From NCBI GenBank assembly GCA_010093605.1, contig MU004191.1, positions 728,816 through 792,815 on the forward strand: a stretch of 64,000 nucleotides of DNA, written 5' to 3'. Source of the DNA: Lophium mytilinum. Taxonomy: Eukaryota. The notes beneath the pieces were generated by a model. It ran no database searches. It saw only the letters and a list, made by a program, of their open reading frames with translations, and was not told where the DNA came from. Positions 4,631 through 35,942 of the stretch are shown piece by piece (within the stretch, counting starts at the first letter, position 1; every line of letters begins with the position of its first letter). The position numbers and the translations under genes were made by a program.

Positions 4631-4659
4631 TCAAAGCTACCGAATCAACTGCGTTCATC

Positions 4660-10414: not shown

Positions 10415-11140
10415 ATGGCGACTCAAGTGCTGCAGCGACTTTCGCTGTTCAACATCTGGACCGTCATGCTTTATACTCTCCTAGTGTTGTCATCTTCTGC
10501 ATTCTCCACTCCATCTACCACGAACACAATGCCGCCAATCATTGTCCTCCGAACATCCACAACGGGCACGGTCCCTCTTAACAAAGCGCTCACCCTCCTG
10601 GGTTACGAACAACTCGCCATCTCAACATTTACCGAAAAGTCAACGCGGCAGCAATCCTACGATACTAAGGGCGAGAAATTATTCGCAGAGCTCGACTGGG
10701 CCATTGACGACGACTTTGAAACCTTGGCCTCATCCTGTCCCTCCACGAAGTTTATCCTCCCAGTTCCGGAACATCCCTCACAGTCAAGCCGAGCGAAGAA
10801 GTGGGCTCGTCAAGCGACAAGAGCCAACGTGTTGAATCTGGTGGAGGAACTGGAGAAATACCAATACGCCGTTTCGGTGCGCAATTATTTCCACGATCGG
10901 GGCGAGGAAGGGCGGTTACTCGAAGTGGTAAATGGGTGGCATGGAGATCGCAGCGGAGATTCTTGGGTGCGGTTATGCGCATTCTTAGAGATGGGATACA
11001 GCGTCGTAGAGCGCAAGAAGCTGCGGAAGTTCCCTGATGCTGCGGGTGGAGCTGCTGGCGGGTCGGATTGGAAGGTTGTCTTCCAGGGGCTGCACCGGAG
11101 CGGATGGGACTTGGCGAGTCGTAAGAGGCGGAGTCGGTGA
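10415..11140 (+). CDS. Sulfotransferase_4-like (P-loop fold) protein with N-terminal hydrophobic segment, 241 aa
   Basis: IIVLRTSTTGT..LNKAL..LGY, PSTKFIL, VRNYF...RLLEV, GDSWVRLCAFL, KFP follow the family pattern G..RTGT.SL..AL..LGY / YP.AK.IL / RLL...GWE.LC.FL..FP. Confidence 0.65.
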   Translation: MATQVLQRLSLFNIWTVMLYTLLVLSSSAFSTPSTTNTMPPIIVLRTSTTGTVPLNKALTLLGYEQLAISTFTEKSTRQQSYDTKGEKLFAELDWAIDDDFETLASSCPSTKFILPVPEHPSQSSRAKKWARQATRANVLNLVEELEKYQYAVSVRNYFHDRGEEGRLLEVVNGWHGDRSGDSWVRLCAFLEMGYSVVERKKLRKFPDAAGGAAGGSDWKVVFQGLHRSGWDLASRKRRSR

Positions 11141-11221
11141 TCGAAGCCCGAATGTACAGTACGTGTCTCTGTGTCCATACCCTCTTTTCTTTTTCATCGT
11201 GTGCCTATCAGGAAAGGCATT

Positions 11222-13463: not shown

Positions 13464-14287
13464 AGTAGTGATGAGAGCCAAAGAAAAGCAGGTGGAACAT
13501 CGAAAAGATGGTGTCTCTGTACAGGGCTTTATGAATGGCAGTTAGGACAGTGCGGGATGAGCTGTAGTGTGCTGGGACGTGCCCTGGCTACTGCAGACAC
13601 CACCAGGTAGAAAACCAGGGGCCCCTTGGATGGGCAGCACTCTATGTGGCATCCTACGAGGTCTGAAACCGCGCTGCCATTTCAAACTGGACGTCACTTA
13701 GCTACGAGAGACCATATCGGCGACTGTATCGCTGACTAAATTTACATTATTCCGAGCATAGTTGTTTTGGCAATGGTCACGTGCCGTCCAGGAGGTTTCG
13801 CGCTTCGGCTGACGTTCCCCGACGCGAAGTGAGGCTGCTCCCACTTTCAACCTTCCCACTCTACAGAGGCAGCACCACAGCACCGAGGCATCACAGTGCT
13901 CGCATCCCTTGTTGGCTTCACCCTTGACTCATCGGTGGCCCGTCGATGCTTCAATGCCCTGTTGCTCTAAGCTAGCGGCCTTTTTCGAGACAGTTGATCG
14001 TGACACGGTTGGCTGAGCTTCACGACGTTACTCCTCCTTCAGACGCCTTCTCTACTCCTACACAGCCTTCCCTCCCGCTTTCGTTTTATAAGCCCATTTT
14101 CTTTTCTTTTTGTTAAGCTGCGCCAGTGGCAATAGACCAAGGGAAGCTGCTTGGGACAGGATCCCCTGTATACACCCCACGAGCTGCACGAATTCGCAGG
14201 CATCGCCGACCCGCATACACGTATGCAACCCTATCTTCGTTCGGCACCTCACCCCAATTAACAGCAATTTGCCGAATTTGCTTGAGA

Positions 14288-15578
14288 ATGGCGTTGGCTC
14301 TTGGCGGCCATATTGTCGAATATCCTCTTGGCCCTTACCCTGTCATCTACCGCAAACCACCAAAGGGTCCGACGGAATCACGCCAGCATGCTTGCTTTCG
14401 CTGCGAGTCTTGTGATCGCAGATTCGTGGACCAGCTCGCCCTGTACCAGCATCTCGCATCCTCCAGCAAGCATAGCCTCTGCGGAAATTGTATGATCGAC
14501 TTTGCCTCTGGCCAAGGACTGCGGGAGCATTGGCGCCAGGACCACTGCATGCACCTCTGCGACGGATGCGATACTGGCTTCGGCACTGCCGACGAGTTCA
14601 TCGCACACGCCAATGCCTGCCACGTGTGTCCTCAGTGCCACAGACATAACTTGAATGCAAACAATCTTGAATTTGTAAGTGACGATCCTCTCTTGTCTCA
14701 ACTCCTGCATGCGTCGCGAATGGGTGATCACTTTAAGCGAAAAGTCGCGTGTCTTTCCCCTCTCTCAATGGGGCTGCTGAGGTAATCTGCCTATCTTGAA
14801 GGGGACAATGTCGGTGCCTTGTTTAAGAAGGTCTCCGAAAACGCCCCCGAAAAGTCACCCACTCGATTAAGCATTCTTCCTATACTGGAAGAATTCGTAT
14901 ACTCAAAGTGGTGAAGAGGGCTTACAAATCCTCTGACCCTTCTCTCCGTATCTACTTTTCTCCGCCTCAGTAGATTTCGGGTCCGCGAGTGCGTATCAGA
15001 CGCCACAAAGCTGCAATCGAGGCGCCACCGACCACAGACCTGCTTTCTAGACGCCACAGAGTCACATACAAACCGTCACTAACAACGCCTCACAGCACCG
15101 CCGGACTCATCTGCCCGCCACCATCCCGTGTCTCTCGTCTGTGTGCGACCGCGTCTTCACGACCTTCTCTGGCATGATGCTGCACCTCGACTCCTCAGCC
15201 TGCCTGTCCGGCCTGTCCCCCGTCCTGCTTAACCACTCAGTCGCCACGTCTGAGGTCTGGCCACACTTCGTGCACGCCACCTGGCGTCCTTACCTGGTCG
15301 ATTACGTCGACATCAACGCCGATATCGACTACGACCTTCCCCCGTTCAAGTGTCCCGGATGCACGCAAGGCTTCGGCTTCGTGAGTGCGATGTTCCAGCA
15401 CTGGGGAAGCAGCTGTTGCGATCACGAAGAGGTGATTGGCGTGATGATGGAGTTTGTGAGTTATCTGCGTGAGAGGCATGGGAGTTGGCTGGATGTGGGA
15501 GCAGAAACGGACCACAAGACGCTGAATTGCAGTGGCGAACCGCCACTGTTCATGATGTTAGCTTACAGCCACGGTTAG
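14288..15578 (+). CDS. C2H2 zinc-finger protein, ~289 aa, 2 exons (14288-14674, 15096-15578)
   Basis: Repeated CxxC..F...L..H...H fingers, and C..CDRVFTTFSGMMLHLDSSAC / FKCPGC..F..SAMFQH..C. A phase-0 intron (GTAAGT..CTAAC..CAG) joins the two ORFs in frame. Confidence 0.85.
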
Positions 15579-16657
15579 GGAGAACTCATGGCCAGCCAAT
15601 GGTCTAGTTACTGCGGGCTATGGGCGTTAAGAAGAGTTGTCCTAGCTTAGGAGGGGAGATGGGTGTTAAGAAAGAGACATCCTAGGTTAGGTTAGGTTGG
15701 GAGATATAGTGTATCGTTTAGCTGCTGTATATCACCTTATTAGCCGACCGTGTAGCTTCAGAAGAAGCTTACCGCATCGCTAGAATGCAAGAGGAAGCAC
15801 ACTCCACGAGGGGCATACAAAACGCCGCATATTCAATAGGCGAATAAACCAAACTCGTCTTCTCCCAAATCCCCCCTTCAATTCGCATCAAGCATCAACC
15901 ACTTTCTTGCCACCACTGAGCATATATACAAACAAGCACATCCCTGTCCGCACCATCGCTATCCCGCACCTCCCGCCCCTCCTGCAGCCCTGAAGGATTC
16001 TCATCGCGGCGCTTACCCCAATGCGGCCCGCGTCGGCATCGCCTCTCCACTCCCGACCATAATCCCGAATAGGGCAAATTAGCGAAAGAAGCCAAGACGC
16101 CTTTACGAAGAACGAATCGCGCTTAGAGTTGGCATGGTGCACGGGCTAGTCATGAGTCGGTTTTCTTGGCGTGGATGAAGGATGAGTCGTTAGACTCAAA
16201 AGGAAAAGGAGAGGACGTAGAGGGTGGGTGGGGTACGAGTTTAAAGTTAGTGTAGTCGGGAATAACGTTAGGCATGTAGATTTATGGGACGTGGGTGTGA
16301 TGAATTCTTTGTTTAGTTACGTCCCAACGCACGGACTAAAAGTGATGGTTGTGGCCGGAATATGGGGAACACGTGAAAATTTTATACGTTTGTCAAACAT
16401 GTGTCTTTATAGATAGCACTAATAGCAGGATATCAAGTTCGTTAAGTGAACTACTAGCTCAGTCAGGTAGGACTTCTTGCTGCTGTGAAGGGACCCTGGT
16501 AGGCTTTTAAAGTGGTAGAGACGGTGGGAAGGTTGATGCAGCGGGTAGCGGGATACTCTTTTGATTGAATGTCAATCTGCCTACTGGGGTACTCTGCACA
16601 GCGCTGGCGAGTGAGCAGGGAGAAGTCTGTGCTTTGCTCGTCACATAATACATCAAC

Positions 16658-19600
16658 CTACACAATGCTATCCGTCTCGTAGTACCTATAGGAAGAGATT
16701 AGCAAAAGGAAAATAACGAAGGAGAACGGGGAAGAAGGTCTTTACCAATCACTAGGGTTGTATGGAAATTTCCTATCTTTCATTAGCCTTCCTTTCCCTT
16801 TCACGCACCTAAAATCAGTTAGTCACGTACCTGATAACCACATCACCCTTGTACTCTCCCAAATTCGGTTCGATCGGCTGGAAGTCTAGAGCGCAAACAG
16901 GTTCCTTCTGCCCGAACTCCTCCACTTCACCTACGACGCCGTCTTTGTAGTCGATGCGGACCATGTTGACGGTTTCGCGACTCGGATCGCCTTTTAGGTA
17001 GTTCAGAGGCGTGATCTGGATTCCACTGTGAGCGGTAGTGAAGACAGTGTTAGGGAGGTCGCCTGTGTGAGGAATATGGTGCATGCCTATGACACGATTA
17101 GAAGACTCTGAAGGCAGTATTGAGAAATTTAATGCTCACCGAGATTAAACCACACCACCAGATCCTCCTGCATAAGTGACTCCCCATCAAAGAACTTGCT
17201 GAAATCAATAGGTGGGTCGAACACATCCTGTGAGTTGAAAGGGTGCGCAGAGCGAGGCTCCGAGTCTTTCTGCTTCGTGACCATCAGATCGTAGCCCGCC
17301 CAATTCGCAGCGTTGACTAGATTACTAGAATTTTGCACCGTCAAGTGGATAGTGCCTTCAGAAGGTAGAATTCGATAACCTCGATACTCGCCGAAGGCAT
17401 TCGGCTTATCGGTGTTGACGACGGAGAATTGAGTTGCTCCGTTCGCAGCCCAGAAGAGTTTACTGTCGTTCTCTGACTCTACGAAGGAACGCTGAAGCTT
17501 CATCGTGTTGCGAGCCTTGCCGTGGGACCAGGGGTAGGTCTCGGTCGTGGCGACGGGAGTTGTCATTTGCATGGTGTTCGCTGTTCCAAGGACGTCCATG
17601 TCTACTTTGTAGTTCAAGACGTGGTCATGCATGCTGAAATATAAGTTAGCAGCTATTGATTACTTTAGAGGCATTTCTAACGAGCAACCCACCTTCCGGA
17701 GAGAGCATCGTGGATGTGGTACCCGTAGTCTCCGTTTTTGGCATAGTACGTTGATTGAATGTATCCGGAGGCTCGCACTTCGACATGGATTGAACCATCC
17801 ATGTAAAACTGGTACGAGAACATGTAATCGTAATTTCCAACGGTGCTCACGGTCCTGACAGTGAAGAAGATATTCTTAGTGGCAGAAACGTAGTTCATAG
17901 TCGAGTGGCGTTGTATAGGGTATCCAGCATCCATTTCAAAGAGACAGATACTATCAAGATGCGTGTGTGTGGTTTCTGCCGTATAAAATGAGCTGTTGAG
18001 ATATGTCGCATATGCTGGGCAGTCGATTCCCTTGACAAGTTCGAATGCGTAGGGACCGAAGCCATAGAAGCTGTCTAGATAGGAGGTACCGGATGCTACT
18101 GGATCATTTCCAGCGTAATGAGCTAGCGCTTCCTGCAAGCCGAGTTCATATATGATGCGTTCGCCTTTGTACCGTATGTTGAAAAGTCGCAAGCCCGTAT
18201 CACGTGTAAATGATAGGTAGAAATCGAAATCCATCCATTTCACGTATTGCTCCTTCACGTCTACCCTGAAGCGAGGTCCAGCTGGAGCAATCAAAGAAGG
18301 TGGATAGAGCTTGTCGGCCGGTGGAATAGTACCCTGCTGATCCGAATCGGCCCATGTATCTTCTACATTGGCTGGCAATTTTTGGAATCCCGGAGACCAA
18401 TATGCGCGTCTGAACTCCTCTGTAGTGGGATAGAAAATATCATTGTAGAGGAATCCTTCGAGCGACCACTTAGACGGGTCTCGGCCTGTGACATTTGACA
18501 TGAAGTAGAGGCCTAGAGGTAGAAGAGTCTCGGCATCAAAGTTCGTTTTCGGATAGCTCCAGAACGTGTCCCATCGAATGATCCCGTCATCCTGCCATCT
18601 ATCCCATAGTGAGCAAAGGGTAAGTTTTGGACGTCAAGCAGCTACACGTACAACGGGTCAATTCCCCACACGTCTATCGTGTCGTTATCTAAGCCCAGAC
18701 AAGTGCCGTTCCACAAGTCCAAGGTAATATCTTTGATGGAGGCGCTGACAACGTAGAGCCACTCGGAGTACAGAGTGTCGTCATCCGCATCGAGATTACG
18801 GACTCGGCCGTTATTTTGCTTGGTGTAAGGGTATGTCAACGGTTCCCATGAAGCAGATCCATTCGTTCCGTTTTGTAGGGGCAGCGGCCCAACCAGAATG
18901 TCCGCGTAATAAGGGTTCTCATCAGCGCGGTGATCTATCATCACATGCGCATACCGTGTTGGTGGTCGCTCAACAACGCCCTCGAGAAACGCCAGAACGT
19001 CGGTTTTGTTTGGTATCATGAGCTCAACTAGCATTATCGTGTTGTCCCTTGAAAGGTTATAAAAGACCATTAGGATGATTGATGCAGAATTAGCATACCA
19101 TTCCGTTGCATTCTCGGTCTGAGTCAGATTCAGTGATGTCTGGGCGAACAGCCTGGTCGAAGTCAGTATGTAATGTTGATTTACTACAATATAGCACTAG
19201 TAAAGTGCCTCATCATAGATGTCCATTAAATAGGGTCCCGCTGATTGAGGTGCCTCATAGAATTTTCAGCATTTCGAATGAGAGCAAGATTCGGATAACC
19301 GGGAGGCTATCCCGGGCAGCGTCAGCAGGGTGTACACAGATCGATGTATTAGGTACCGCTGGTTTCTATTATTACCTTGGAGCCCTATAAAGAGTGGCAA
19401 GAAGTGTAATATATCTCCTAGCAATGTGCGAACGTGACTTTCAGTTCACCGATCATCCGTGGGACCTCCTTAGGATACTTGCGTTCTGCCCTGGAGTCGA
19501 ATGCAATCAAGGAATCTCTTAAACGCTAAATAGTAAATAAAAGACATACCATGCTGTTACGGACGCAGCTTCGCCGTTGGTGAGTCCAGCCCAGACGTTT

Positions 19601-19812: not shown

Positions 19813-20821
19813 CACGGGAGGTAGTACTGAGATTCAAGGTCCTGCTAAGCCTCAGGAACCGGGAGTTTGGCAAGCCTGTCGGAGGCTGACCTTTTGAACT
19901 GCATGAGAGTAGGATTTCCCCACCCTCTGTCACCGGGAGCCCGGTTCGGATGGTAATTCCTGGTTGGTATCTTGCCGGCATTTGTGCTGTGGCAGGCACC
20001 TTTGCAGGGGAGAACGCATTCTGTGCTGGGAAGCCCGGCAGTATGCGTCAGGTTCTTGTAAGCAATGAAGCACGAGTTGCACGTTCCTCTCATGACTGTA
20101 CCCAATAGGCGGGAGGAAGAATTGATGACAATAAGAAGCCAGAAGAAAGCAACGATGCCAATGGATCAGCTCTCAAGTGGCTATAGATGGAGACTCCGCT
20201 GAAACGCCATTCAAGTGCCGCGGACGCACGAGATGGGGCATGTTAGTCGGCAGCAAGGATTTCAGAGTCACTATCTTGCATCAAGTAATCCAGAAGCAGT
20301 TCGTGTCGTCCGCAGATAAGAAGTGCAGCCTTGTCACTCGGATACTCATACTTCATCGGTCCAAGCGGAGGGTCAAGGTTTGCCCGATGCCATGGCTGAG
20401 CGTGCTCGAAGGATTAGGCGCGTTGATCTTAGAGATGAGCTTAGAGATAGTAAGGGAAGAGGCGTCGAGTTTGAGAGTGGAGGCTTCGAGGTTGGGGGTC
20501 ATCGTAAACGTGAGCATTTAGCATTTCTCAGCACGCTAACTTCGAACAGAACATCAGCCCCTCTTGACCACGGCAATCCCTGGATGGAGGATGGATCCCC
20601 GCAATGCAACCTCAAAGGAACAGATGGGCAGGGAACCCGATAAGAGACCCCTCATCACAGCGCCGGCAGGTAAGTCCCGACAGCATTCATCCGATCTTGT
20701 TCTACTGCTATTTGAGCAGCGATGCCCGCTACGGCGCTACGCGTTCCAGCATCATCTTGATTGCTTAGCGTAGTACCGCAAAGGAAAGGTCTTTCTTTAG
20801 GAGCATCATATTGAAGCTAAC

Positions 20822-22605
20822 ATGGATTTCAAAGCCCACGATGGCGCGGTGGAAGAGCCGGAGTCGCAGTTGCAATCGCCTAAAGCTTTCGTTGACGTAA
20901 TCGAGGGTGAAGTCCGTGAAGCTATCGCGGCAGAACACGAGCTGGACTTCCTCGGTGCACTGAAGTTATACCCTAAAGCTATTGGATGGTCTGCCTTCTT
21001 CTCGTTGGGGGTAATAATGCTTGCATTTGATCCGCAACTACTTGGGTAGGAAAACCTTCGAGCTTAATCTACGCGTCCTTACGTCTGATATTAGAAATCT
21101 TTACGCTATGCCCGCCTTCCAGAAGGATTTCGGGTACCAATACAATGGCGAGGTAGGCGCTTCCTATCTTCAGTCGAGGATTGGGGATGCAGAGAAAGAC
21201 TGACATGGGCGATCAGTATATAATATCCGCACCATGGCAAACTGGCCTCAGTATGGGGAACCCGATCGGGCAGGTGGTCGGTGCTATTTTTGCTGGACTC
21301 CCAATGGAGCTGTATGGACGCAAGAAAACGTTCAGCGTGTGTGTTTGCGGGACTGCGGGTATCGTGTTCATTCAATTCTTTGCCCGATCTCTCCCGGTTT
21401 TGCTTGTTGGTGAGCTACTTGGAGGCCTGATACTTGGGATGTACGGTAGGTCGAACGGTTTTTGCAATATCCCACTCGTATAACTAATTATTGATAGTTG
21501 TGATTGCGCCCGCATATGCGTCAGAAGTCTGTCCGATAGCAATTCGTGGAACACTCACTTCCTACATCAACCTCTGCTTTGTTATGGGCCAGCTTTTGGC
21601 GAACGGAGTATGTGCTGGTACCTCAAAGCTGTCCAATCATTGGGTGCGTAAATCTTTAAACCCTCTCCAGCTCATCTTAATTTGATATAGGCCTATTCGA
21701 TCCCATTCGCTCTCCAATGGTTCTGGATTCTGATCATTATCCCCGGGATGGCTTTCGCACCGGAAAGTCCTTGGTGGCTGGCCAGGAAGAACAGATTAGC
21801 TGAAGCCGAGCATGCGCTCTCTCGTCTAGCTTCTCCAAAGGTAAACATCAAAGCAACACTCGCTATGATTGTCGAAACGGATCGATTCGAGCAAGAGATG
21901 GAAGCTGGTAGCACCTACTGGGACTGTTTTAGGAAGGTCAATCTTCGTCGTACGGAGATTTCTATCGGCGTATACACTATCCAAGTCTTGAGTGGCATCT
22001 ACCTTATCAACTACGGTACACTATTCTTTGTTCGCGCCGGACTCGCAACCGACAAGGCCTTCGACATGGGCATCGGATTCCTTGCTGTAGGTTTCGTCGG
22101 CACGCTGTGCTCCTGGTTTCTCCTCCAGCACTTTGGTCATCGCACGATTTATAATGTCGGCCTCACAATCCTCGCTGTATTACAGCTTCTGATCGGATTT
22201 CTTGATTTGGCTCCCCATATCGACAGACGCTCATCTATCATCTGGGCTCAGTCATCCCTGATGTTAATATGGAATTTTTTCTACGATATATCCATCGGAC
22301 CCGTCTGCTTCGTTATCTTGTGCGAGGTTAGCGCCACGAAGGTCCGCGCCAAGACTATCGCCATCTCCACTGCCGTCCAGGCCGTTCTCGGTATTGTAAT
22401 GACAGTCGCGATTCCTTATTTGATGAATCCAGACCAGGCGAATGTGAAAGGGAAGCTTGGCTTCTTTTTCGGCGGGCTCGCTTGCATATCACTCGTATGG
22501 GCGTTCTTCCGCATTCCTGAGACCAAGGGTAGGACGTACGAAGAACTTGACATTATGTTCGAAAGGGGCGTGCCTACTAGGGACTTTGGAACCTACAAGA
22601 TATGA
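20822..22605 (+). CDS. MFS sugar porter, maltose/alpha-glucoside permease-like, 5 exons
   Basis: YGRKKT, AYASEVCP, PESPWWL, LRRTEI and PETKGRTYEELD motifs. Spliced frame has no stops. Confidence 0.93.
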
Positions 22606-23457: not shown

Positions 23458-25271
23458 ATGGGAGACAGAGCCTCACTCTCCAGTGCGATCAGCAAAAAAC
23501 GCGACGGGAAATACACAGAAGCGATTGCGACTACTGATACTAAACGCGTCAAAGACCCCCATGGCTTCGCTTTACGACCAGAGGACTGGCACGTACGTCG
23601 CTCACCTGCTTCGGCATAACCAAAAAGACTTCCTCATCAATCCTCATTAGTACCACTTCAACAAGAAGCTCATGTGGAAGATCGACGTCCGCTTGTTGCC
23701 GTTATAATGTCTCATGTGCGGAGCAACCACCCCAGCCCCATCGTGAATGAGAGGATATATGCTAACTTCAGGGCTAGGTTCCTCATGAACTATCTTGATC
23801 GCAGCAACCTCGCTCAAGCGCGCCTCGGCGGCTTGGAAGACGATCTCGGCATGAAAGGGGTAGAATTCAACACCGCAACCTCCATCCTATTCGTCGGCTA
23901 TCTTCTCATGCAACTCCCCTCCAACCTAGTCTTCACCCGCTTGAAGCCAAGTATCTACCTCCCAACTGGCATGCTTGTCTGGGGCACGATCTGCGGTTGC
24001 CAAGCAGCGTTGCACAATTACAAGGGCCTCGTGGTAACGAGATTCTTTCTTGGTTTTGCAGAAGCCCCATATTTCCCAGGGGCTATCTATTTGATGAGCA
24101 CATGGTATACAAGATCGGAACTAGCGAAGCGTTTTGCGGTCTTCTATTCTGGCCCGGCCATTGCCAACATGTTTATAGGGCTTATTGCCGCCGGCGTCTT
24201 GCAGAATCTTGATGGCGCTGGAGGGCTCGAGGGGTGGAGATGGCTGTAATTTTGGTTCCCCTCTCCCAAGTTATAACAACACTGACAGTGGCCCATAGGT
24301 TTATCATCGAGGCTCTCATGACTCTATCAATCTCGTTCGCTGCCTTGTAAGCACCCCTGTCCCTCTCTCGCTACTCCCTTTCCGTAACTCCCTGCACGCA
24401 ACTGACCCCCGATCCCAGCTTCATTCTTCCCAACTTCCCTTCCGCCACCCCTTGGCTCACCGAAGAAGAGCGCGCCTACGCCAGCTGGCGCATCGAAAAC
24501 GACATCGGCTCCGACGAAACCGGCTATGTCGAACCCACCATGCTCGCCGCCATCAAGCTTGCTGTCTTAGATTACCGGACTTGGCTTTTCGTTGCCATGC
24601 AGCACTGCATCCTGCTCTCACAGACCGTAACATTCTTCTTCCCCTCCGTCGTCAACACCCTCGGCTACCCACGCATCACGACCCTACTGCTCACAGCGCC
24701 AGTCTGGGTCGCCACCTTCAAATTCAATCTAGCCATTCTATGGAGCACATCGCGTACAAAGGAGCGATGTTTCCACATGATCGGCAGCATGGCCGTCACG
24801 ATCATCGGGAACATCATGCTCATCACGATCCACCTCCGCGGCCCCCGCTTCCTCGGTATAGTTTTCATGGCCATGGGTGCGCAGCCCGCATTCATGATCA
24901 TGTTGACGTGGATCTCGAATACCTTCCCTCGCCCTCTTGGGAAGCGCGCGGCGATTACTGCGATTGTCAATATGATTGGGAACCGCTCGAATATCTACGG
25001 GAGTTGTCTGTACCCGAAGAGCGCGGCGCCGCAGTATGAGTTCGGCGGTGCGACGATTGCTGGAGTGGGAGGGTTGTGTATTCTACTGGCGCTGGTGTTG
25101 AGGTAGGATTTGGAGATGGAGAACAAGAAGACTGATCGTCAGGCGGAGTTGCTAGCGCAGGAGCCGGAGGTGGAGAGGCCGGAGGCGACGGGTGAGGCGG
25201 TGCATCTTAGCTTTAAAGGGGACGAGGAGAGGAGGGAGTTGGCGAGTAGGCAATTTCGTTACATGTATTGA
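23458..25271 (+). pseudogene. ACS-family (allantoate/nicotinate permease-like) MFS transporter with two premature stops
   Basis: KIDVRLLP, NYLDRSNL, RFFLGFAEAPYFPG, WYTRSE, GLEGWRWLFIIE, C-terminal FRYMY*. In-frame TAA at 23705-23707 and TAG at 25104-25106 (LR*DLEMENKK). Confidence 0.8.
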
Positions 25272-26581: not shown

Positions 26582-27756
26582 ATGCTTAAACCAACAGTCC
26601 TTCATATAGGAGAAGCTATCAAGTACAACCACGAGTTCTATGAGAAGGAATTCCTATCACGATTCAATGTGGTCCAAAATGAGGAGCCAGACCGAGCTTC
26701 CTTCATTGAAGCATTAAAGTCCAAGAAGTATGCTGCGTAATTCAAAGTGTAAACCTAGGATGGCACGAAGACTAACATCATATAGATATGGAGATTTCTC
26801 AGCCATCTACCGACCGCATTTCCAGACCGGAGGAGAGGTAATTAGATGCACGCTATTATCTAGGGATAAAGCTAATTATAGTTCCTCTATTCTAGATGGG
26901 ACCATGGGATGAAGAACTCATTAAGCTCCTCCCAGCGTCCGTACGAATATTCGCAAGTGCTGGAGCTGGATTCAACTGGGCTGATGTAGATGCCTTGGCT
27001 GCTCGGAAAATCTGGTACTCCAATGGCGCCGGAGCCTCAGATGAGGCCGTCTCGGACACCGCGCTATATGGGATTCTCTCTGTCTTCCGGAACTTCACTC
27101 GATCCCAACTCGCCGCTCGCACAGCCGACCCTGAAATCTTCACTGCAACACATAAGCTGATCGCTACGATCTCGCGAAATCCCCGGGGACACATACTAGG
27201 GATAATTGGATTGGGGAACATAAGCAAGAAGCTGGCATACAAGGCGAAGACCGCCTTAGGCATGGATATACACTATTACGATGTTGTGCGGGCAAGCGAA
27301 GAGGAGGAGAAGACTCTTGGCGCGACGTTTCATGCGTCTTTGGATGACATGCTGAAGATCGCCGATTGCATATCGCTTCACTGCCCACTAAACAAGCATA
27401 CACAAGATCTCATCGACGCGAAGGCGCTAGCATTGATGAAACCAGGTTCCCGGATAGTCAACACCGCTCGAGGACCAGTAGTAAACGAAGATGCGCTGGT
27501 GGCAGCTTTGGAGAGCGGTCACATCAGCGCTGTAGCACTCGATGTCCATTATCACGAGCCTCAAGTATCGAAGAAGTTGGCTGCGATGGAGCAGTGTACT
27601 TTGACTACACATATTGCAGGCGGGGCGTTGGACACGCGGATCAATTTTGAGCTAGGGGCTATGAAAAACATCATTGCTGTTCTCGGCCCGGATGGCGAAT
27701 GTATAGGGACGCCTTTAACGCCAGTAAACGCGAAAGCCTATAATGCGGCAGCGTAA
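26582..27756 (+). CDS. D-isomer-specific 2-hydroxyacid dehydrogenase (D-mandelate dehydrogenase/glyoxylate reductase-like), 3 exons
   Basis: ASAGAGF, GIIGLGNIS dinucleotide-binding motif, SLHCPL, VNTARGPVV, LDVHYHEP, THIAG. Two 5' introns. Confidence 0.93.
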
Positions 27757-28201
27757 ATAAAACACCACTGATACTCGTTCCGGAATGTCCGAATTTCTTA
27801 GCAAATCATGGCATCATCATAAAATAATTCCTTGGTGTGCAGATTCTTAGCCGTAGCTTAGAACTATCGTCAGAAGGCCCGTTGTAGTCAATACTTCTCT
27901 AATGCTTCGTCCCGTCTCATACGCCACTGTCGAATTTCTAGTATTAAGGTAGTCCGGGGAGGCTCCGCTAGTCATGTTCCTAGTTGTCTATATCCCCACT
28001 CCCCGCGTTCACTCCCCACGCACTTCTCGCCGACCTGGGGTATCGTGCCCACGTGAGCACCCAGCATGATTCAAGTGCGTGCGCAAGGATTTGCGCTTCC
28101 GAGCTCTTGCTATCCTATTTGTTTAAAGCATTCTCTGTCGTTGTTGCACCATCAAACGTTCTTGATCTTTTACCTCTTTCACAACATTTTCATCTCGAAT
28201 T

Positions 28202-29988
28202 ATGGAAGACATCGTCACAGCAAAGGCAGATGTTGAGGCCGTTGAGAAGGTCATCAACTCGGTAGACTATCTGCCTCTTCCAGATGAGCTGCTTCATTTG
28301 AGCGAAGATGAAATCAAGAAGTTGGAAAAGAGTCTTACTCGGAAACTGGACATGACCCTGATGCCGGTAGTTGCGTTGCTTTTCCTTCTCAACATTCTCG
28401 ATCGCAACAACATTGCGAATGCGAAAATCTCTGGTCTGACGAAAACTCTGGACATCACAAACTCGCAATACAATACTTGTCTGATGATATTCTATGTTGG
28501 ATGTAAGTCACTCGCACCAGATTCGATCATATAGGTCAATACTGATGAGGATTAGATGTCATCACGCAAATACCCTCGAACATGCTCATCACGAAGATCT
28601 CCCGTCCATCCGTTTACATATGCTGCATCACATCTGCATGGGGTGTTGTATCTATGTGTCAAGCTTTCACTAAAAGTTTCGGCGGGCTCTTTGCAGCTCG
28701 GTTCATACTAGGTCTTGTCGAAGGTAATATTCTATGAGCTACTCGGTCAATGATCAGTGATTGACTTATCTAGCACCATTTCTACCGGGCGTTTTCTACC
28801 TCATGAGCTGCTGGTACAAGCGATCTGAGTTGCCGCCTAGGATAGCCATCTTGTACGGGTCTAATATGCTTGCAACTGCATTTGGCGGGTGTGTCATCTA
28901 AGCAGAATAACTAAGAGACATGAAGTGCTTATCAATACGCGTAGTCTTATTGCAGCTGGTATCATCTCACGAATGGACGGAAAAGCAGGTCGTCCCGCAT
29001 GGGTAAGTCAGATCTCGGAGCCTTTGAACGCAAGCTAATAGTGCCCAGGAGTGGCTATTCATCATTGAGGGGTCAATGACCATTGCTATTGCGCTTCTTG
29101 TCATGCCTGTCGTTCCCGATTATCCAGGTCAGCACATTCGATCATGGACGGGCATGGACAAACAACACCACATCTACGCTGAATGGCGCATCCGTAAGGA
29201 GAATGCTGGTATCAAAGACGAAGACACCGAGTCAATTTGGTGGGGCCTGGGCCAGGCGCTCAGAGATCCAAAGCTGTATATGTTTGTGGTTATGCAAATG
29301 GCGCTCATCACGGCGCAGAGCTTCAATAACTTCTTCCCTTCAATTGTCGGAACGCTCGGCTACAACAGGACAATCACGCTCCTTCTTACCGCGCCGCCTT
29401 ACATCTTCGCGTTCATCGTCTCGCTTTGCGTTTCGTTTCATGCGGCACATAAGGGTGAGCGAGGTTATCATATCGCCATTCCCATGATCTTCGGTCTTCT
29501 CGGCAATCTTTTGGTAAGATCTCCCACCTGTCCATCAAACTCGCTTCGACATGGAGACTAACCTTTCCTAGGCCATGTTCGTACCTACACTCGGCGGGCG
29601 GTATTTCTCGATGTTTCTCATGACATCTGGCACATATGCACCATACAATCTCTGCGTGTCCTGGCTATCGTCATCTCTCCCACGACCCGCATCTAAACGC
29701 GCTGCTGTCTTCGCCATCGTCAACCTGATGGCGGCTGGTGTTGCTCATTTCTATACTTCCTACGCTTTCCCAGACACACAGAAGCCGCGTTACTACGGTG
29801 GCGGAGCTATGATGAGTGCTGCGTGCCTTATCTGCGCCACGATGGCATTGGGCATCAAGTGGCATCTGAAGCGGGAGAACAAGAGGTTCGACATGGTGGA
29901 AGCTGGTGGAGAGGTTGCGAAGACTATCAAGGGAAGTAAGGCTGGTCATGGTGGTGAGGCGACTGTTTCTTTCCGCTATGTCCATTGA
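28202..29988 (+). CDS. ACS-family MFS anion transporter, multi-exon
   Basis: RKLDMTLMP, NILDRNNIANAK, RFILGLVEAPFLPG, WYKRSE, WLFIIEG, LLTAPPY, C-terminal FRYVH*. Confidence 0.93.
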
Positions 29989-30624
29989 GCCCGTTATTAC
30001 GCGGTGACATGGCAAAGATGTTGAGATGAGGCCGTCCCGGGCATGTTGAACGAGACACGTAAAGGCTGGAGTGATTTATGCCATGTACATACTAAATTTC
30101 GCCAAAAAGCCAACCCTAACCAACTTCGAATCTCAATCTCAGTGCTTCAATGTTATAGATCGCAATGCTATACCCTGTCTACAGATGCGCAGATGTAACC
30201 TCTAATCTTCATCACTCAACACCACCGCTAGGAGTGGCCCGGCTGCCTAATAGCCGGCTCGTGAAGGATTGACTCAATTCCCACAGCGTCAAACTTTATA
30301 TTTTCCCCACGTGGCTCACCGCATAAACTGCCCTTTCCCTCAATATCGCCACCTCCTCGTCAACCACGGCCTGCTCGGGCTATCAAAGTGCCGAAAAGCC
30401 GTAAATCCTGGACACATACGCTAAGAGATGCACGGCGAGAAATCCGAGCCTCACCCGGAGGACCGCATGGAGGGGTATATACCCTGTAGACCAAAGCTCG
30501 GGAGCTGCATGCTAGTTCCTAAGCTCGGTCTTTGGAAATGTTAACATCTCTTCAGTTATTTCTCTCCTTTCGTTCATAAGTCGGTTTCGTTCCTGCCAGT
30601 CATTTCGACGCATTTATAGACGCA

Positions 30625-32321
30625 ATGGGGGAAAATAGAGAACTGTCACTGGCTGATGTCAGTACCCATAATACCGAGACGGATTGCTGGATAGCTGTGA
30701 GCTCGAAGGTGTGGAATATTACGGAATTCCTTGATCTTCATCCGGGTGGTAAAGCTGGTACGTAGCTTCTTCCTTCAATTTCAAACCCATTCAATTTCTC
30801 CTCGATCGTTATAGGCTAACACTGCCTCACAGTAATACTCAAATACGCAGGCGCCGACGCAACCGCTGCCTACGAAGAAATCCACGCTCCTGGAATCCTA
30901 GAAGAGCATCTATCATCTGAAAAGTTCATCGGGGACCTGGCCCCCAGCGCTCCGAGCAACGACGTCGCGCCCCCCTCGACAGTCCAAGAAGCTACAAAAG
31001 CAGAAGAAACTCCACCGACAGCGCCTCAAACTCAAGTCACCGTCACCGTCCAGCAACCCACCGAGCTTCCGGCACTCTACTCCCTGATCGCGGCCTACGA
31101 TTTCGAAGAAGTCGCAAAACGCCACTTCACCCCGAAAGCGTGGGCGTTCTACTCCTCCGCTGCAACAGATTTAGTCACGCATCATGCGAATAAGTCTGTG
31201 CTTCGCCGTGTGATGATTCGGCCTCGTATTTTGCGAGACGTGAAAGAGGTCTCCATCAAGCGGAAGATCCTAGGCCATGACAGCGCCGCTCCGTTCTTTA
31301 TCTCGCCGGCAGCGATGGCACGGCTTGCGCATAAAGACGGCGAGCTGGCATTAGCGAGAGGTGCCGCTGCGGAGGGAATCGTGCAGTGTATATCGAGTAA
31401 TGCGTCGTATCCACTTGGTAGTATTGTGAATGCGGGTGTGGATGGGCAGACGTTCTTCTTGCAGCTTTACGTCAATTGGGATAGACCTAAGACGGCGGAG
31501 TTGTTGAAGAAGGCGGCGTCGTTGGGTGTTAAGGGGGTATTTGTGACGGTGGATGCACCAGTGCCCGGAAAGAGAGAGGCGGATGAGCGAGTGGCGGCTG
31601 AGGCAGTGGCGAGCGCGATTAGTGGTGCGGTTGCCAGTAATGACAAGAAGGGTGGCGGTATGGGGAGGCTGATGGCAGGGTACGTGGAGAAGAGTCTGAT
31701 ATGGAAGGATATTCAGTGGATCAAGGAGGTGTCTGGGTTGCCAGTCGTACTCAAGGGGGTGCAGAGCGCGGCGGACACGATGCTGGCGGTTGAGTATGGG
31801 GCTGCTGGTGTAATGTTGAGCAACCATGGTGGTCGGTCTTTAGACGGGTAAGTCTAACAATTCTGGGAGGGGATCATGGAGTTACTAACGATTTGCAAAG
31901 CGCACAACCTACCATACTGGTCCTCCTAGAGCTGCACCGAGTGTGCCCGGAAGTCTTCAACCAGATCGAAATCTACATTGATGGAGGATTTGAAAGAGGA
32001 TCTGATATCTTGAAAGCCCTCGCTCTGGGAGTGACGGCAGTCGGACTCGGACGTCCATACCTCTATTCGTTGGCATTTGGTTCTGAGGGAGTGGAGCATC
32101 TCACACAGAGTATGTCTAGCACCCAAAACGGGCTATTTGTTGTGCTAACCTTTTGTACAGTATTAAAAGACGAGTTGGAAACCTCTTTGCGCCTCTGCGG
32201 ATTAACAGACATTGATCAGCTTCACCCCGGACTACTCAACACGCAAGATATCGACCATATGGTCACGAACGAGGCTAATCGGCACCCGTGGATTAAATGG
32301 GAACCGAAAGCAAAGATATGA
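30625..32321 (+). CDS. Flavocytochrome b2-type (S)-2-hydroxy-acid dehydrogenase (cytochrome b5 + FMN domain), multi-exon
   Basis: N-terminal b5 domain (CWIAV..KVWNITEFLDLHPGG), RPRILRDV, FLQLY, TVDAPVPGKREAD, VVLKGVQ, SNHGGRSLD, IDGG. Ends -AKI*. Confidence 0.93.
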
Positions 32322-33260
32322 AGAATTTAGACAGAACGATACCATAGATGATGATGTAGAATAGTTCTTGGTCGCAAGTGGTAGATTCTATGATTGATTG
32401 GTGTTGAGAAGAGACGATGTCTTCGGAATGGGGCTAGTTTCAGCAAGGACTAACGACTCGGCCACTTGTTCCCAACATCCTTTTCTGGTCCATCCACATC
32501 AAACTGTAAAAGAGATAATCAAGAACACAAGAGAATCATACCGTTCATGGACGAAGGTTTGTCACAAACCCCTGGGCTTCTCACGTGAGATACACGTGAC
32601 ATTTCCTGGGTTGTATCAGTTCCATAGTGTTTGGGTCATTTGCAAGCACAGCTCAAGGTCTATTTTAAAGGCCTAATTAGGTCTTTTGATACTCAACACA
32701 AGCAAATGAACGGTCTTCATGCATCAAATAACCACATTCGTCTCTCACCTGGCCCCATCGACAATCCCTCCAACTCGGACCACCCACTCCACAACCACCA
32801 CCGCATCTGTGGCATGATGTCCCAACAAGCTCCACCCTCGCCTCCACAAACCCCACAACGCTTGACTCGACGCTGCCCGTGGCTTAGCACGGGGTGGCGG
32901 CCGACTTAACAAGCATCGCAGTTCTCTCCGGCAACCCCTCCTCCGCATTATCCTCTGCCCCACATGCACGAGGCGTATTTCCTTCTCTTGGACACGCGAA
33001 CGCGGACTTCGGCCGTCCAGGTACGCAACATGAGTGGAAGATGCCGCGTAGAGGGGTATGCGGTGGTATATACGCCGTGAAGACCGCGAGGTGAGGGGCG
33101 TATTTCAAGCTCACGCGACGCGACTTCACTGAAGTATATGTCCTCATTTGTTACCACTGCATCCTACCAAAGACCTATATTCTTGTCTTCTGAGTTCATT
33201 CATTCCAGTTCAAGCTTTCGTATATACCAATTCTTCACGCTTCATCCTCCAACCGCCAAA

Positions 33261-34354
33261 ATGCAAAAGTCTACCATCCCCAACAAATCGCACCCCCTTC
33301 CCCCGGGAGTCTACACCCCCGTCCTCTCCCTCTACGAACCAAATCCCACCCAAGACATCGATCATGAAGCCATGTACAAGCACGCACAGCACCTCGTACG
33401 GGGCGGCATGCACGGGCTTGTCTACCAAGGCACAAACGGCGAAGCAGCTCTCCTCTCACGAGAAGAAAAGATCGCAGTCCTCAAGAACATCCGCAAAGCA
33501 GTCGCCGACCTCGGCGTGCCCGACTACCCCATCGTCGCCGGTGTGAGTGGACAGAGCACAAACGAGAGCATCCAACTAACCAAAGACGCCGCGGAGGCGG
33601 GCGCGAGCTTTGGATTGCTACTACCACCCAGCTTCTGGGCAAAAGCCGTTACAGAAGACGTACTACGAGGCTTCTACCGTGACGTTGCTGACGAGAGCCC
33701 CATACCCATCGTGTGCTATAACGTACGTACCCCTCTCTTCCACCCCCACCCCTTTTCCACCCTTCATTTTCGTACTTACTTCCTCTCAAACAGTTCCCCG
33801 GCGTAACCTCCGGCGTCGACCTCAACTCCGACGACCTCGCCGCCCTGGCCACGCACCCGAACATCATCGGCACCAAACTAACCTGCGGCAACGTGGGCAA
33901 AGCGATCCGCCTAACCTCGCAGTTCACACCCGCGCAATTCTCCGTCTTCGGCGGCTCCTCCGACTTCCTCTACCCCACGCTTGCAGCCGGCGGCGTCGGC
34001 TGTGTGACGGGCATGGGCAACGTGTGGCCGAAGTCCACGGCCCGCGTCTACGATCTGTATGTCGCGGGCGAGCTCGAGGAGGCGCGGCGGCTGCAGGAGG
34101 TCGTGGCGAGCGCGGAGTGGGCGTGCAAGAAGAGCCTTGCGCTGACGAAGTTCGGGGCGGGGCATTTTGTGGGGAAGAAGATTGGGTTTGAGGACCCGCG
34201 GACGTGGTATCCAAGGAAGCCGTATGCGCCAGCGGGGGAGAAGTTGCAGGCGTGGACGGTGGAGGTGATGGGGGTGTTGGAGGTGGAGGAGGCGAGGATT
34301 CCGGATAGGGTGTTTAAGGGGAAGGGGACGAATGGGGTTAATGGGAGTAAGTGA
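33261..34354 (+). CDS. DHDPS/NAL-family class I aldolase (2-keto-3-deoxy sugar-acid or 4-hydroxy-2-oxoglutarate aldolase-like), ~340 aa, 2 exons
   Basis: PPGVYTP, QGTNGEA, LLLPP, VADESPIPIVCYN|FPGV, Schiff-base Lys in IIGTKLTCGN. Intron 33723-33793. Confidence 0.92.
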
Positions 34355-34475: not shown

Positions 34476-35942
34476 TTAACACCCTCCACCTCCTCCACCC
34501 CCATCGCCTCCCCCTCCGCCCCCTCCTCCGCCGCCATCCCCTCCGATTCCACCTCCATCTCCGGCACTCATATTCTGCAGCTGCCCTCCTAGCTCTACAC
34601 CGTGGTTGAACCTATGCAACGCAGAATTCAACTCCGCATTCGCAGACTTGCCATTCTTCAAATCCTTTGCCTTAAGATACGAAATCATCCCCAGCGGTTG
34701 TGTCCCCGCTAGAGTCTCCGCATGCGCCACCTCAACCGGATTCTTCGCTTTCTCCTCTCTTAGCAAATGCCGCTCCCAGTCCCGCAAGACCTGGAGCGTC
34801 GCCGCCGCCATGCCGATATCCAGCCCTTGCATACGTATGTTCATTGACTCATCAGGAAGCGCGCCCTTGATACGCCATGTGCAGCTCGGCTTCACAGACT
34901 GTCCGGTCTGGCGACAGGGGTTGCACACATCGTGGTCGTCGAGACACGTCTTGCATTTCCAGCGGATGCCGACCATAGGTTTCGTCTTGCACCCGTCACA
35001 GGTCGCCGTTTTATGGATCTCCTGCTCATCCACGAAGCCGTCCCAGAAGACGTGGTCCGCAACGATAGCGTTATTACAGAAAAGCGCGTGGCGGACCGTA
35101 TCCCACCTCGCACCATTCAAACTACTCACGCGGGCCGACGAGCGCCATTCATAGCTCGTACCATCCAGATTTTTGAACGTGAGCGAAGCGTACTCTCCCG
35201 TCGCTTCGAACTTAGGATGAATCTGGACGCCGTAGGGGTTTGTGAGGGTTTCGCTGAGGACGGCGTCGGTCTTGCGGTTGCGGGTGAGGGTGTAGCTCCA
35301 TAGGCTCTTTGCGTTGGAGGAGGGCGAGGACATAGTCCAGCAGTACTTCTTGTCGCGGATGTGGCCGCCTTTCTGCTCCATCTTGATGTAGAAGAGGGGT
35401 GCGTGTTTGGGGGATTTCTGTTGCACGACGGTGCGGAGTGAGGACCACTCTTGTGCGCCGAGCGGGTCGGCCCAGTCGCTGTCGACGCAGGGGTGGAATG
35501 TGCCATATAGTGAGGATGTTGGGGGGGGAAGGTGCCATGTTTGCGGGATTGGAGCTGTGGTATAGGTGTTAGCAGTTACCTAAAGTTGTAGGCGTGGTAG
35601 GAGACTAACGTTGGCGATGTTCTTCAAGGTAATTGACAAGCTCTTTGGGATCTACGAGGGAGAGGTTCTGAGGTGTTGTGGGTCTTGGATGGTGTCCTGA
35701 TGCTGGTAGCTCTACTGGCTGTTGTGGCGCAAGATGACTCTGGGACTGTGGTGAATAATACTGAGGCTGCATGGGTGGTGCCTGGGCATATGGGTGCTGC
35801 ACATATGGTGTGTGGTGTTTGTTGGATAGGCATTGGCGAACCGGCTGGATATTGAGCCTGGGGATAACTTTGCGGAGGATAGCCTTGCTGTGATTGTTGA
35901 TATCCCTGGCCTGGCGTATAGCTATTTGGTCCCCATGGCTGC
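34476..35942 (-). pseudogene. ZZ-type zinc-finger protein gene with Q/P/Y-rich N-terminus and Gly-rich tail, 5' end interrupted by an LTR
   Basis: HKTATCDGC..IRWKCKTC.DHDVCNPC; intron 35555-35609; +1 frameshift near 35810. The coding frame runs directly into the LTR at 35943 with no start codon. Confidence 0.7.

What the first reader, a model, noticed from the sequence alone, without database searches (positions are those of the whole stretch)
26582..34354. Candidate undescribed catabolic cluster: D- and L-2-hydroxyacid dehydrogenases + anion importer + pyruvate aldolase
Seen: four intact, adjacent, co-oriented genes (D-2-hydroxyacid DH, ACS-MFS, flavocytochrome b2, DHDPS-family aldolase). 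Known: these two dehydrogenase families act on opposite C2 configurations (the same pairing oxidises D- and L-mandelate in Rhodotorula), and DHDPS-type aldolases cleave 4-hydroxy-2-oxo acids to pyruvate plus an aldehyde. No dehydratase or keto-acid decarboxylase is present in the window. Inference: a stereo-convergent route importing both C2 epimers of a 2,4-dihydroxy (3-deoxy) acid, such as metasaccharinic acids or 2,4-dihydroxyglutarate, oxidising them to one 2-keto-3-deoxy acid and cleaving it. Alternative: a lower deoxy-sugar-acid pathway in which lactaldehyde-derived lactate is re-oxidised.
Basis: partly seen in the sequence, partly recalled or inferred. Interest (0 to 1): 0.72.

Follow-up and report, generated by a model that had tools for sequence, protein, structure and literature searches.

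The report
Conserved fungal hydroxy-acid breakdown gene cluster
A transporter gene sits beside three enzyme genes that stay together across many filamentous fungi, which points to an undescribed route that takes up a sugar-like acid, oxidises either mirror form of it and splits the product; the exact compound is still unknown.

Summary
There are four intact, co-oriented fungal genes: an NAD-type D-2-hydroxyacid dehydrogenase, an MFS transporter, a flavocytochrome b2 and a DHDPS-family Schiff-base aldolase. A public contig set skips the predicted introns of three of them. The three enzymes are co-conserved: 29 of 36 species with two or more listed share a contig length, and 8 of 8 comparable locus-tag pairs lie within 10 genes, with changing neighbours, across four fungal classes. 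Transporter co-conservation was not tested. The aldolase forms its own clade, apart from this genome's probable GaaC. The flavocytochrome departs from the yeast lactate pocket, and a canonical lactate-type paralogue exists elsewhere. The dehydrogenase has invariant arginines where D-mandelate dehydrogenase has apolar residues. This argues against lactate and mandelate and for a polar, sugar-acid-like substrate. A possible A. niger orthologue (not proven) is induced by sugar acids. Best reading (0.5): both C2 epimers are oxidised to one 2-oxo acid, which is cleaved; 3-deoxy-aldonates fit best. Rivals: C2 epimerisation, or a HOGA/glyoxylate shuttle. No description was found in ten literature searches. 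No substrate is shown.

The parts
26582..27756 (+). g1: D-2-hydroxyacid dehydrogenase (GHRB group, nearest solved relative Rhodotorula D-mandelate dehydrogenase), 352 aa; exons 26582-26727, 26786-26837, 26896-27756. Catalytic R258/E287/H305 intact, Asp195 (NAD-type), invariant R58 and R314, no PTS1.
   Evidence: 2W2K, E 8e-81; 63 of 63 full-length homologues at these residues; both introns skipped
28202..29988 (+). g2: MFS transporter, 507 aa, 6 exons. ACS/Dal5-like by recalled motifs; taken to be the importer of the acid.
   Evidence: weak MFS_1 on one exon; Atlas: fungal MFS clusters; 10 hydrophobic segments by a crude scan; all five introns skipped. Co-conservation not tested.
30625..32321 (+). 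g3: flavocytochrome b2 (haem b5 domain plus FMN L-2-hydroxyacid dehydrogenase), 505 aa, 4 exons. No presequence; C-terminal PTS1-like AKI. Catalytic set intact; substrate pocket differs from yeast Cyb2 (Y143F, L230N, L286P, F325Y).
   Evidence: (F, N and Y in 90 of 90; P in 86 of 90)
33261..34354 (+). g4: DHDPS/NAL-family class I aldolase, 340 aa, 2 exons. Schiff-base Lys182 and Tyr153 intact. Member of an uncharacterised ascomycete clade distinct from GaaC.
   Evidence: P0001; 70 of 70 at both residues; clade support 1.00; model pLDDT 89.7; best folds 3QFE, then human HOGA

Best explanation
A conserved Pezizomycotina catabolic cluster for a polar, sugar-acid-type 2-hydroxy acid. The MFS imports the acid (inferred). 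The NAD-dependent g1 oxidises the D (2R) epimer in the cytosol, and the flavocytochrome g3 oxidises the L (2S) epimer, probably in the peroxisome; family stereospecificity is established knowledge, while direction and location are inferred. Both give one 4-hydroxy-2-oxo acid, which g4 cleaves by Schiff-base retro-aldol chemistry, and this pulls the unfavourable NAD step. The most likely substrates are 3-deoxy-aldonates (giving pyruvate plus an aldehyde, e.g. via KDG-type keto acids; about 0.35). Next are ordinary aldonates or aldarates (giving hydroxypyruvate plus an aldehyde, with g1 perhaps also reducing hydroxypyruvate; about 0.15). Shown: genes intact, three spliced, enzymes co-conserved, catalytic residues intact. 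Inferred: every substrate and direction.
For: Co-location: 29 of 36 species share a longest-contig length; 8 of 8 comparable locus-tag pairs lie within 10 genes, 5 directly adjacent, with the partner changing between lineages. The aldolase has intact Lys/Tyr and is nearest to GaaC-like and HOGA-like 4-hydroxy-2-oxo-acid aldolases, but forms a separate clade. No dehydratase was found nearby to supply the keto-deoxy acid, so C2 oxidation would be the entry. g1 has R314 where D-mandelate DH has the Phe linked to mandelate activity (PMC6303947 section 17; alignments), and a polar R-P-H-F-Q loop (62-63 of 63). g3 has Asn for Leu230 (90 of 90), and the lactate-pocket paralogue is a different locus. 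Indirect: A. niger NRRL3_03899, a possible member of the g4 clade, rises 39.7-fold on rhamnose, depending on lraA/lraB but not lraC, and 67-fold on galactarate.
Against: No substrate was tested, and one search gave no paper on fungal 3-deoxy-aldonate use. Most family members of g1 act as reductases in vitro. g3 carries a PTS1 while g1 and g4 homologues do not (75 of 90 versus 0 of 63 and 0 of 70), so intermediates must cross a membrane, and the electron acceptor is unknown. N230/P286 also occur in two unclustered paralogues, so they mark a wider clade. Seven of 36 species showed different contig lengths. The NRRL3_03899 link is unproven; that gene has no FMN-dehydrogenase or D-2-HADH neighbour in the table read, its deletion had no rhamnose phenotype, and its induction may reflect release from glucose repression. 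Transporter co-conservation was not tested.
Confidence: 0.5

Rival explanations
1. C2 epimerisation cascade: g3 oxidises an L-(2S)-aldonate, g1 reduces the 2-keto acid to the D-(2R) epimer, and g4 acts on a later or side intermediate. This is the logic of the A. niger glucuronate route (L-gulonate to 2-keto-L-gulonate to L-idonate).
For: GluC of that pathway is an NADH-dependent D-2-hydroxyacid dehydrogenase (PMC4870679 passages). The L-gulonate-oxidising gene is still unidentified (PMC13158570 passage). L-gulonate is 2S, the geometry of the FMN family (recalled). The g1 family mostly reduces.
Against: It gives the aldolase no clear role, yet the aldolase is as tightly linked as the other two. 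In the A. niger table no FMN-dehydrogenase or cytochrome b5 entry among those shown lies on gluC's scaffold. Orthology of g1 to GluC could not be tested.
Confidence: 0.16
2. Aldolase-first glyoxylate shuttle, like human HOGA1/GRHPR/HAO1. An imported 4-hydroxy-2-oxo acid (e.g. 4-hydroxy-2-oxoglutarate) is cleaved to pyruvate and glyoxylate; g1 reduces glyoxylate to glycolate; peroxisomal g3 re-oxidises it for malate synthase.
For: The three enzymes belong to the same three families as the human set (recalled). Human HOGA is the best characterised fold match (TM 0.77, 26% identity). g1 keeps the Arg of the GHRB Arg-X-X-Met motif. g3 has a PTS1.
Against: PTS1 is common among this genome's flavocytochrome paralogues, including the lactate-pocket one, so it is not diagnostic. 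Asn at position 230 is smaller and more polar than the Leu of Cyb2 or the Trp of glycolate oxidases (Trp recalled), which suggests a larger substrate. g1 lacks the Gly-Ser motif tied to hydroxypyruvate activity (G308 in 63 of 63). g4 has no conserved presequence.
Confidence: 0.15
3. D/L-mandelate or other aryl 2-hydroxy acid catabolism, with g4 acting as an arylidene-pyruvate hydratase-aldolase.
For: g1's closest solved relative by far is D-mandelate dehydrogenase (E 8e-81 against 8e-37 for the next family). NahE-type hydratase-aldolases are in the DHDPS family (listed).
Against: The Phe-His-Glu-Phe mandelate motif is replaced by Arg-x-x-Phe. No benzoylformate decarboxylase was found in the region. 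NahE-type hits are weak (E 2e-8) compared with 3QFE and HOGA.
Confidence: 0.05
4. Lower deoxy-sugar pathway: g4 cleaves KDR-type acids to lactaldehyde, and g1/g3 re-oxidise D- and L-lactate.
For: The possible A. niger relative is rhamnose-induced.
Against: g3 lacks the lactate pocket and a canonical paralogue exists. GHRB enzymes usually do not accept pyruvate. The A. nidulans KDR aldolase is HpcH-family, and this genome has 3 HpcH-family loci. Deleting NRRL3_03899 did not affect rhamnose growth. No aldehyde dehydrogenase was found nearby.
Confidence: 0.04
5. The genes are linked by ancestral synteny or serve overlapping scavenging roles for several acids, without forming one pathway.
For: No regulator lies next to the cluster. 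The possible A. niger aldolase sits beside an aldo-keto reductase instead, as in the Septoria fusion P0072 of the same clade.
Against: Linkage persists across four classes while direct neighbours change.
Confidence: 0.1

Closest known systems
Fungal D-galacturonate pathway aldolase GaaC/LGA1 (EC 4.1.2.54)
   Same: DHDPS-family aldolase sharing the G-x-N-G-E and K-x-T-C-G-N motifs with the genome's probable GaaC; non-phosphorylative sugar-acid cleavage.
   Different: 37.8% identity to the probable GaaC at G000:C1, which lies beside a GFO/IDH/MocA oxidoreductase as gaaC lies beside gaaA; separate clade. Here the keto acid would come from C2 oxidation rather than from a dehydratase.
A. niger D-glucuronate pathway (GluC/GurA; L-gulonate oxidase gene unknown)
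   Same: Uses C2 oxidation and a D-2-hydroxyacid dehydrogenase on sugar acids.
   Different: No aldolase step is described; orthology of g1 to GluC is untested.
Rhodotorula graminis D-mandelate dehydrogenase (2W2K) and L-mandelate dehydrogenase (flavocytochrome b2)
   Same: The same pairing of enzyme families for opposite C2 forms (the L enzyme is recalled); g1's nearest solved structure.
   Different: The mandelate pocket motif is absent; the downstream enzyme is an aldolase, not a ThDP decarboxylase.
Human HOGA1 / GRHPR / HAO1 glyoxylate handling (recalled)
   Same: The same three enzyme families; a peroxisomal FMN enzyme.
   Different: g4 has 26% identity to HOGA and no presequence; g3 has a haem domain and a non-glycolate pocket; g1 lacks Gly-Ser.
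S. cerevisiae Cyb2 L-lactate dehydrogenase
   Same: Haem b5 plus FMN architecture; all catalytic residues checked are kept.
   Different: No presequence, PTS1-like end, Y143F/L230N/L286P/F325Y; a lactate-pocket paralogue exists elsewhere.

Membership tests
DHDPS/NAL class I aldolase superfamily | TIM-barrel fold with Schiff-base Lys and proton-shuttle Tyr | tested here: met
   Model pLDDT 89.7, TM 0.84 to 3QFE; K182 and Y153 in 70 of 70 homologues
DapA (true dihydrodipicolinate synthase) | TIGR00674 equivalog cut-off | tested here: not met
   124 bits against cut-off 206
GaaC/LGA1 | Orthology and adjacency to gaaA | tested here: not met
   Another locus (G000:C1) has that arrangement; g4 is in a separate clade. 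That the C1 gene is GaaC is inferred from synteny; no GaaC reference sequence was available.
L-KDR aldolase (LRA4 / LraD) | Orthology to LRA4, or HpcH family as in Aspergillus LraD | tested here: inconclusive
   g4 is not HpcH-family, and the genome has 3 PF03328 loci; LRA4 sequence not available for comparison
HOGA1 | Cleavage of 4-hydroxy-2-oxoglutarate | not testable with these tools
   26% identity, best characterised fold match; needs an assay
HOGA1 | Mitochondrial presequence | tested here: not met
   66 of 71 proteins have the first conserved motif within 14-20 residues of the start; 4 have longer extensions, unlike each other by eye; 1 lacks the motif
Flavocytochrome b2 family | Two haem His ligands; catalytic Y254/D282/R289/K349/H373/R376 | tested here: met
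   89-90 of 90 homologues (numbering from the alignment)
Cyb2-type L-lactate dehydrogenase | Lactate pocket Y143/L230/L286/F325/I326 | tested here: not met
   F/N/P/Y/V in g3; all five are kept in paralogue L087
D-2-hydroxyacid dehydrogenases | Arg/Glu/His catalytic triad and nucleotide-binding motif | tested here: met
   63 of 63 homologues
D-mandelate dehydrogenase | Phe-His-Glu-Phe in place of Arg-X-X-Met | tested here: not met
   Arg-x-x-Phe in 63 of 63
Glyoxylate/hydroxypyruvate reductase (GRHPR type) | Gly-Ser motif after the catalytic His | tested here: not met
   Gly at the Ser position in 63 of 63; the Arg of Arg-X-X-Met is kept
GluC/GurA 2-keto-L-gulonate reductase | Orthology and activity on 2-keto-L-gulonate | not testable with these tools
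   No GluC sequence came from any tool
ACS/Dal5 anion transporters | Family placement and 12 transmembrane helices | tested here: inconclusive
   MFS-level hits only; 10 segments by a crude scan; no PDB hit for exon 2
Fungal catabolic gene cluster | Linkage conserved across distant species | tested here: met
   Three enzymes: 29 of 36 species, 8 of 8 comparable tag pairs; transporter not tested
Fungal catabolic gene cluster | Co-induction by the substrate | not testable with these tools
   One contig-level run only

The most novel reading that the evidence does not exclude
Filamentous ascomycetes have a widespread, dehydratase-free and kinase-free route for sugar acids. Two unrelated dehydrogenases, one cytosolic and one a peroxisomal haem-flavoenzyme, funnel both C2 epimers into one keto acid that a new aldolase clade cleaves. 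g3 would be the first fungal L-aldonate 2-dehydrogenase (a candidate for the missing L-gulonate step), and g4 a gene for an orphan fungal KDG/KDGal-type aldolase activity, or an aldolase that releases hydroxypyruvate.
Probability: 0.3. Interest if true: 0.75.

Novelty: new variant of a known kind. Interest (0 to 1): 0.57.

Why it matters
Fungal sugar-acid metabolism has named gaps. The gene for L-gulonate oxidation is unidentified (PMC13158570), the D-KDGal aldolase step has no gene assigned, and eight paralogous aldolase groups sit under EC 4.1.2.51 by orthology only (PMC6231085). This cluster ties one such aldolase clade to two specific dehydrogenase subfamilies, so three cheap enzyme assays could define a pathway shared by saprobes and plant-associated fungi (g3 relatives also occur in lichen fungi). 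It would also give a function to a non-lactate flavocytochrome b2 subfamily that databases label L-lactate dehydrogenase, and supply stereo-complementary biocatalysts.

Tried and rejected
Accession numbers for cluster members could not be obtained, so co-location rests on the locus tags and contig lengths printed. The aldolase search covered only proteins of 327 aa or more, and the two dehydrogenase lists show only the best 120 of 430 and of 1071 hits. Metagenome scan: 1 of 80 loci held a close aldolase relative (73%, 2.7 kb contig) with no partner gene; no g1 or g3 match in 82 loci. Prokaryote scan: 5 of 80 loci had a distant D-2-HADH neighbour and 0 of 80 an FMN dehydrogenase, so no bacterial counterpart was found. 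PTS1 as a cluster-specific clue: rejected, since at least four other paralogues end in AKL or GKL. N230/P286 as a cluster signature: rejected, since two unclustered paralogues share it. Upstream in-frame ATG at 33138 as a targeting extension: not conserved. Shared promoter 7-mers: none in all four upstream regions. Sequencing runs: no holder on record as RNA; contig depth cannot rank genes. ESM Atlas gave family names only. Earlier scan notes: nothing by sequence, words or relatives for this cluster. Literature searches returned nothing; others returned no description of this gene set, judged from listings and the passages read. The library holds only open-licence PMC papers and bioRxiv, so subscription papers may describe it. 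A. niger neighbour annotations were not found in the supplements of PMC6231085, PMC5674754 or PMC3689640, and the minus-strand rows beside NRRL3_03899 in the PMC5153877 table were not read.


Full report
OBSERVATION. The window is fungal: intron-bearing genes and an AT-rich block from 36 kb. I built gene models from the sequence. All four genes are intact and on the + strand: g1 26582-27756 (352 aa), g2 28202-29988 (507 aa), g3 30625-32321 (505 aa), g4 33261-34354 (340 aa), separated by 445, 636 and 939 bp. Pfam confirms the enzyme families; the transporter has only a weak MFS hit on one exon piece. The g4 model is identical to P0001, named by NCBI from Lophium mytilinum. Contigs of run X1 skip both g1 introns, all five g2 introns and the g4 intron at the predicted GT-AG sites. 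No g3 joint is among the 15 listed (9 were not shown), and the run's RNA status is the tool's guess.

CONSERVATION. Genomes of other fungi could not be fetched, so I used the homologue tables. Searches with g4, g1 and g3 exons listed 73, 120 of 430 and 120 of 1071 proteins. Thirty-six named species appear in at least two lists. In 29 of the 36 the proteins share the same longest-contig length; in 7 they differ. In six of those seven at least one protein stands for a multi-member cluster, so different strains are a likely cause; Clohesyomyces has two short contigs (24 and 34 kb). Eight species show comparable locus tags for two enzymes, and all eight pairs are within 10 genes: Talaromyces verruculosus, Diaporthe ilicicola, D. 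australafricana, Gaeumannomyces hyphopodioides and Fusarium zealandicum (adjacent), Seiridium unicorne (4), Pestalotiopsis fici (5) and Coleophoma crateriformis (10). Three further pairs with visible tags were dropped: Bipolaris and Neoarthrinium (different strain prefixes) and Mollisia (ids not positional). The aldolase is next to the dehydrogenase in some lineages and next to the flavocytochrome in others. Linkage across Dothideo-, Sordario-, Leotio- and Eurotiomycetes (class names recalled) with reshuffled order is what a functional cluster looks like. The transporter was not tested. A bacterial counterpart was not found.

THE ALDOLASE. g4 folds as a DHDPS-type barrel (pLDDT 89.7; best matches 3QFE at 40% identity, then human HOGA at 26%). 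Lys182 and Tyr153 are present in 70 of 70 homologues. It is below the DapA cut-off. The genome has two paralogues. One, at G000:C1, lies divergently beside a GFO/IDH/MocA oxidoreductase; gaaC and gaaA carry consecutive tags in A. niger (PMC5488244, passages), so I take that locus as GaaC (the family of GaaA is recalled). In a FastTree of 63 sequences the ten cluster aldolases, with P0314 and the Septoria aldolase-reductase fusion P0072, form a clade with support 1.00, apart from both paralogues (midpoint root, no named references). The Aspergillus KDR aldolase is HpcH-family (PMC9699597, passages), and this genome has three such loci.

THE FLAVOCYTOCHROME. g3 begins directly with the haem domain and ends in a PTS1-like tripeptide; 75 of 90 full-length homologues fit a relaxed PTS1 pattern, against 0 of 63 dehydrogenases and 0 of 70 aldolases. 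The control weakens this clue: other paralogues in the genome, including the lactate-type one, also end in AKL. With yeast Cyb2 numbering read from the alignment, the haem ligands and catalytic residues are kept, but the pocket has F143, N230 and Y325 in 90 of 90 and P286 in 86 of 90. A paralogue at G000:C3 keeps Y143/L230/L286/F325/I326 and is the likely L-lactate dehydrogenase; two other paralogues share N230/P286 but not F143. So g3 is not the lactate enzyme, and its pocket suits a larger, polar side chain (inference).

THE D-DEHYDROGENASE. g1's nearest structure is Rhodotorula D-mandelate dehydrogenase. The triad and the Asp that marks NAD preference are invariant. PMC6303947 (passages and section 17) links mandelate activity to Phe-His-Glu-Phe replacing Arg-X-X-Met, hydroxypyruvate activity to a Gly-Ser motif, and hydrophilic loop residues to large hydrophilic substrates. 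g1 has Arg-x-x-Phe, no Gly-Ser, and a near-invariant Arg/His/Gln loop. This argues against mandelate and against a typical hydroxypyruvate reductase, and for a polar or anionic side chain. The same paper notes that most members act as reductases, which counts against assuming oxidation.

AN EXPRESSION LEAD, NOT PROOF. PMC6231085 (passages; supplement 3, all 89 PF00701 rows) lists A. versicolor protein 140083 in the NRRL3_03899 group, close in number to the g3 homologue ASPVEDRAFT_140035. In A. niger NRRL3_03899 lies beside an aldo-keto reductase (PMC5153877 supplement 1, part 92), which echoes fusion P0072. I put the chance that it belongs to the g4 clade at about 0.6. It rises 39.7-fold on rhamnose, drops 5-6-fold without lraA or lraB but not without lraC (PMC5674754 supplement 4), rises 67-fold on galactarate at 5 h and also rises in the two other series of that table, and its deletion leaves rhamnose growth normal. 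That pattern fits response to aldonic acids themselves. Against it: no FMN-dehydrogenase or D-2-HADH entry is adjacent in the rows seen (nearest 40 kb away), and derepression after transfer could explain part of it.

MECHANISM. Most likely (0.5): uptake of a sugar-acid-type 2-hydroxy acid, oxidation of the 2R form by g1 and the 2S form by g3, and retro-aldol cleavage by g4. 3-Deoxy-aldonates fit a pyruvate aldolase best (0.35); ordinary aldonates giving hydroxypyruvate are the next option (0.15). Rivals: epimerisation as in the A. niger glucuronate route, where GluC is a D-2-hydroxyacid dehydrogenase (PMC4870679, passages) and the L-gulonate oxidase gene is unknown (PMC13158570, passages), 0.16; a HOGA/GRHPR/HAO1-like glyoxylate shuttle, 0.15; no single pathway, 0.10; mandelate, 0.05; lactate, 0.04. 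All substrates and directions are inferred.

NOVELTY. Ten searches of the open-access library showed no description of this gene set; subscription papers are not covered. PMC9670274, PMC11219438 and PMC3689640 were read as passages only and add background, nothing specific. Each protein belongs to a known family, and clustered non-phosphorylative sugar-acid pathways are a known kind. The combination, a dehydratase-free entry through two opposite-handed dehydrogenases into a distinct aldolase clade, appears undescribed. Verdict: a real, widely conserved cluster; new variant of a known kind; interest 0.57.

Noticed in passing
window 23561-25271 (+): Broken paralogue of g2 (44% identity over the N-terminal part). 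The frame is interrupted near 23705 and by a premature TAG at 25104; low contig depth in X1. Possibly a decayed second transporter of the cluster.
   Followed up: partly
window about 20670-22605 (+): Spliced Sugar_tr-family transporter 4 kb upstream of g1; link to the cluster unknown.
   Followed up: no
window 36000-64000 and L175:1-8000: About 36 kb AT-rich block; the window part has strong RIP indices (TpA/ApT about 1.8; (CpA+TpG)/(ApC+GpT) 0.09-0.16). It begins 1.6 kb downstream of g4.
   Followed up: partly
L176-L177 (G000:C11 about 806-819 kb): Beyond the AT-rich block lies another acid-sugar-like group. By eye from ORF translations: sugar transporter, two aldo-keto reductases, regulator, NAD-dependent epimerase-like gene, kinase-like gene.
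   Followed up: partly
P0072 (Septoria linicola): g4-clade aldolase joined to an aldo-keto reductase (fusion or merged model), suggesting reduction of the aldehyde product in some lineages.
   Followed up: partly
A. niger chr_401:167025-174008 (PMC5153877 supplement 1): A different DHDPS-family gene (181152, NRRL3_04286) also lies within 5 kb of an FMN alpha-hydroxy acid dehydrogenase (180245), which may be an independent aldolase/oxidase pairing.
   Followed up: no
window 32619-33260: A contig covers 640 nt upstream of the g4 start, containing nine ATGs including an in-frame one at 33138; the extension is not conserved.
   Followed up: partly
window 34476-35610 (-): ZZ-type zinc-finger protein convergent with g4.
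   Followed up: no
window 3749-19550: Upstream genes: methyltransferase-like, P450 and UstYa fragments, RTA1, a probable regulator, a C2H2 protein and a copper amine oxidase; no evident link to the cluster.
   Followed up: no
L081-L090 (own genome): The genome holds at least nine FMN alpha-hydroxy acid dehydrogenase loci and three DHDPS-family genes; several flavocytochromes end in PTS1-like tripeptides, including the lactate-pocket one.
   Followed up: partly
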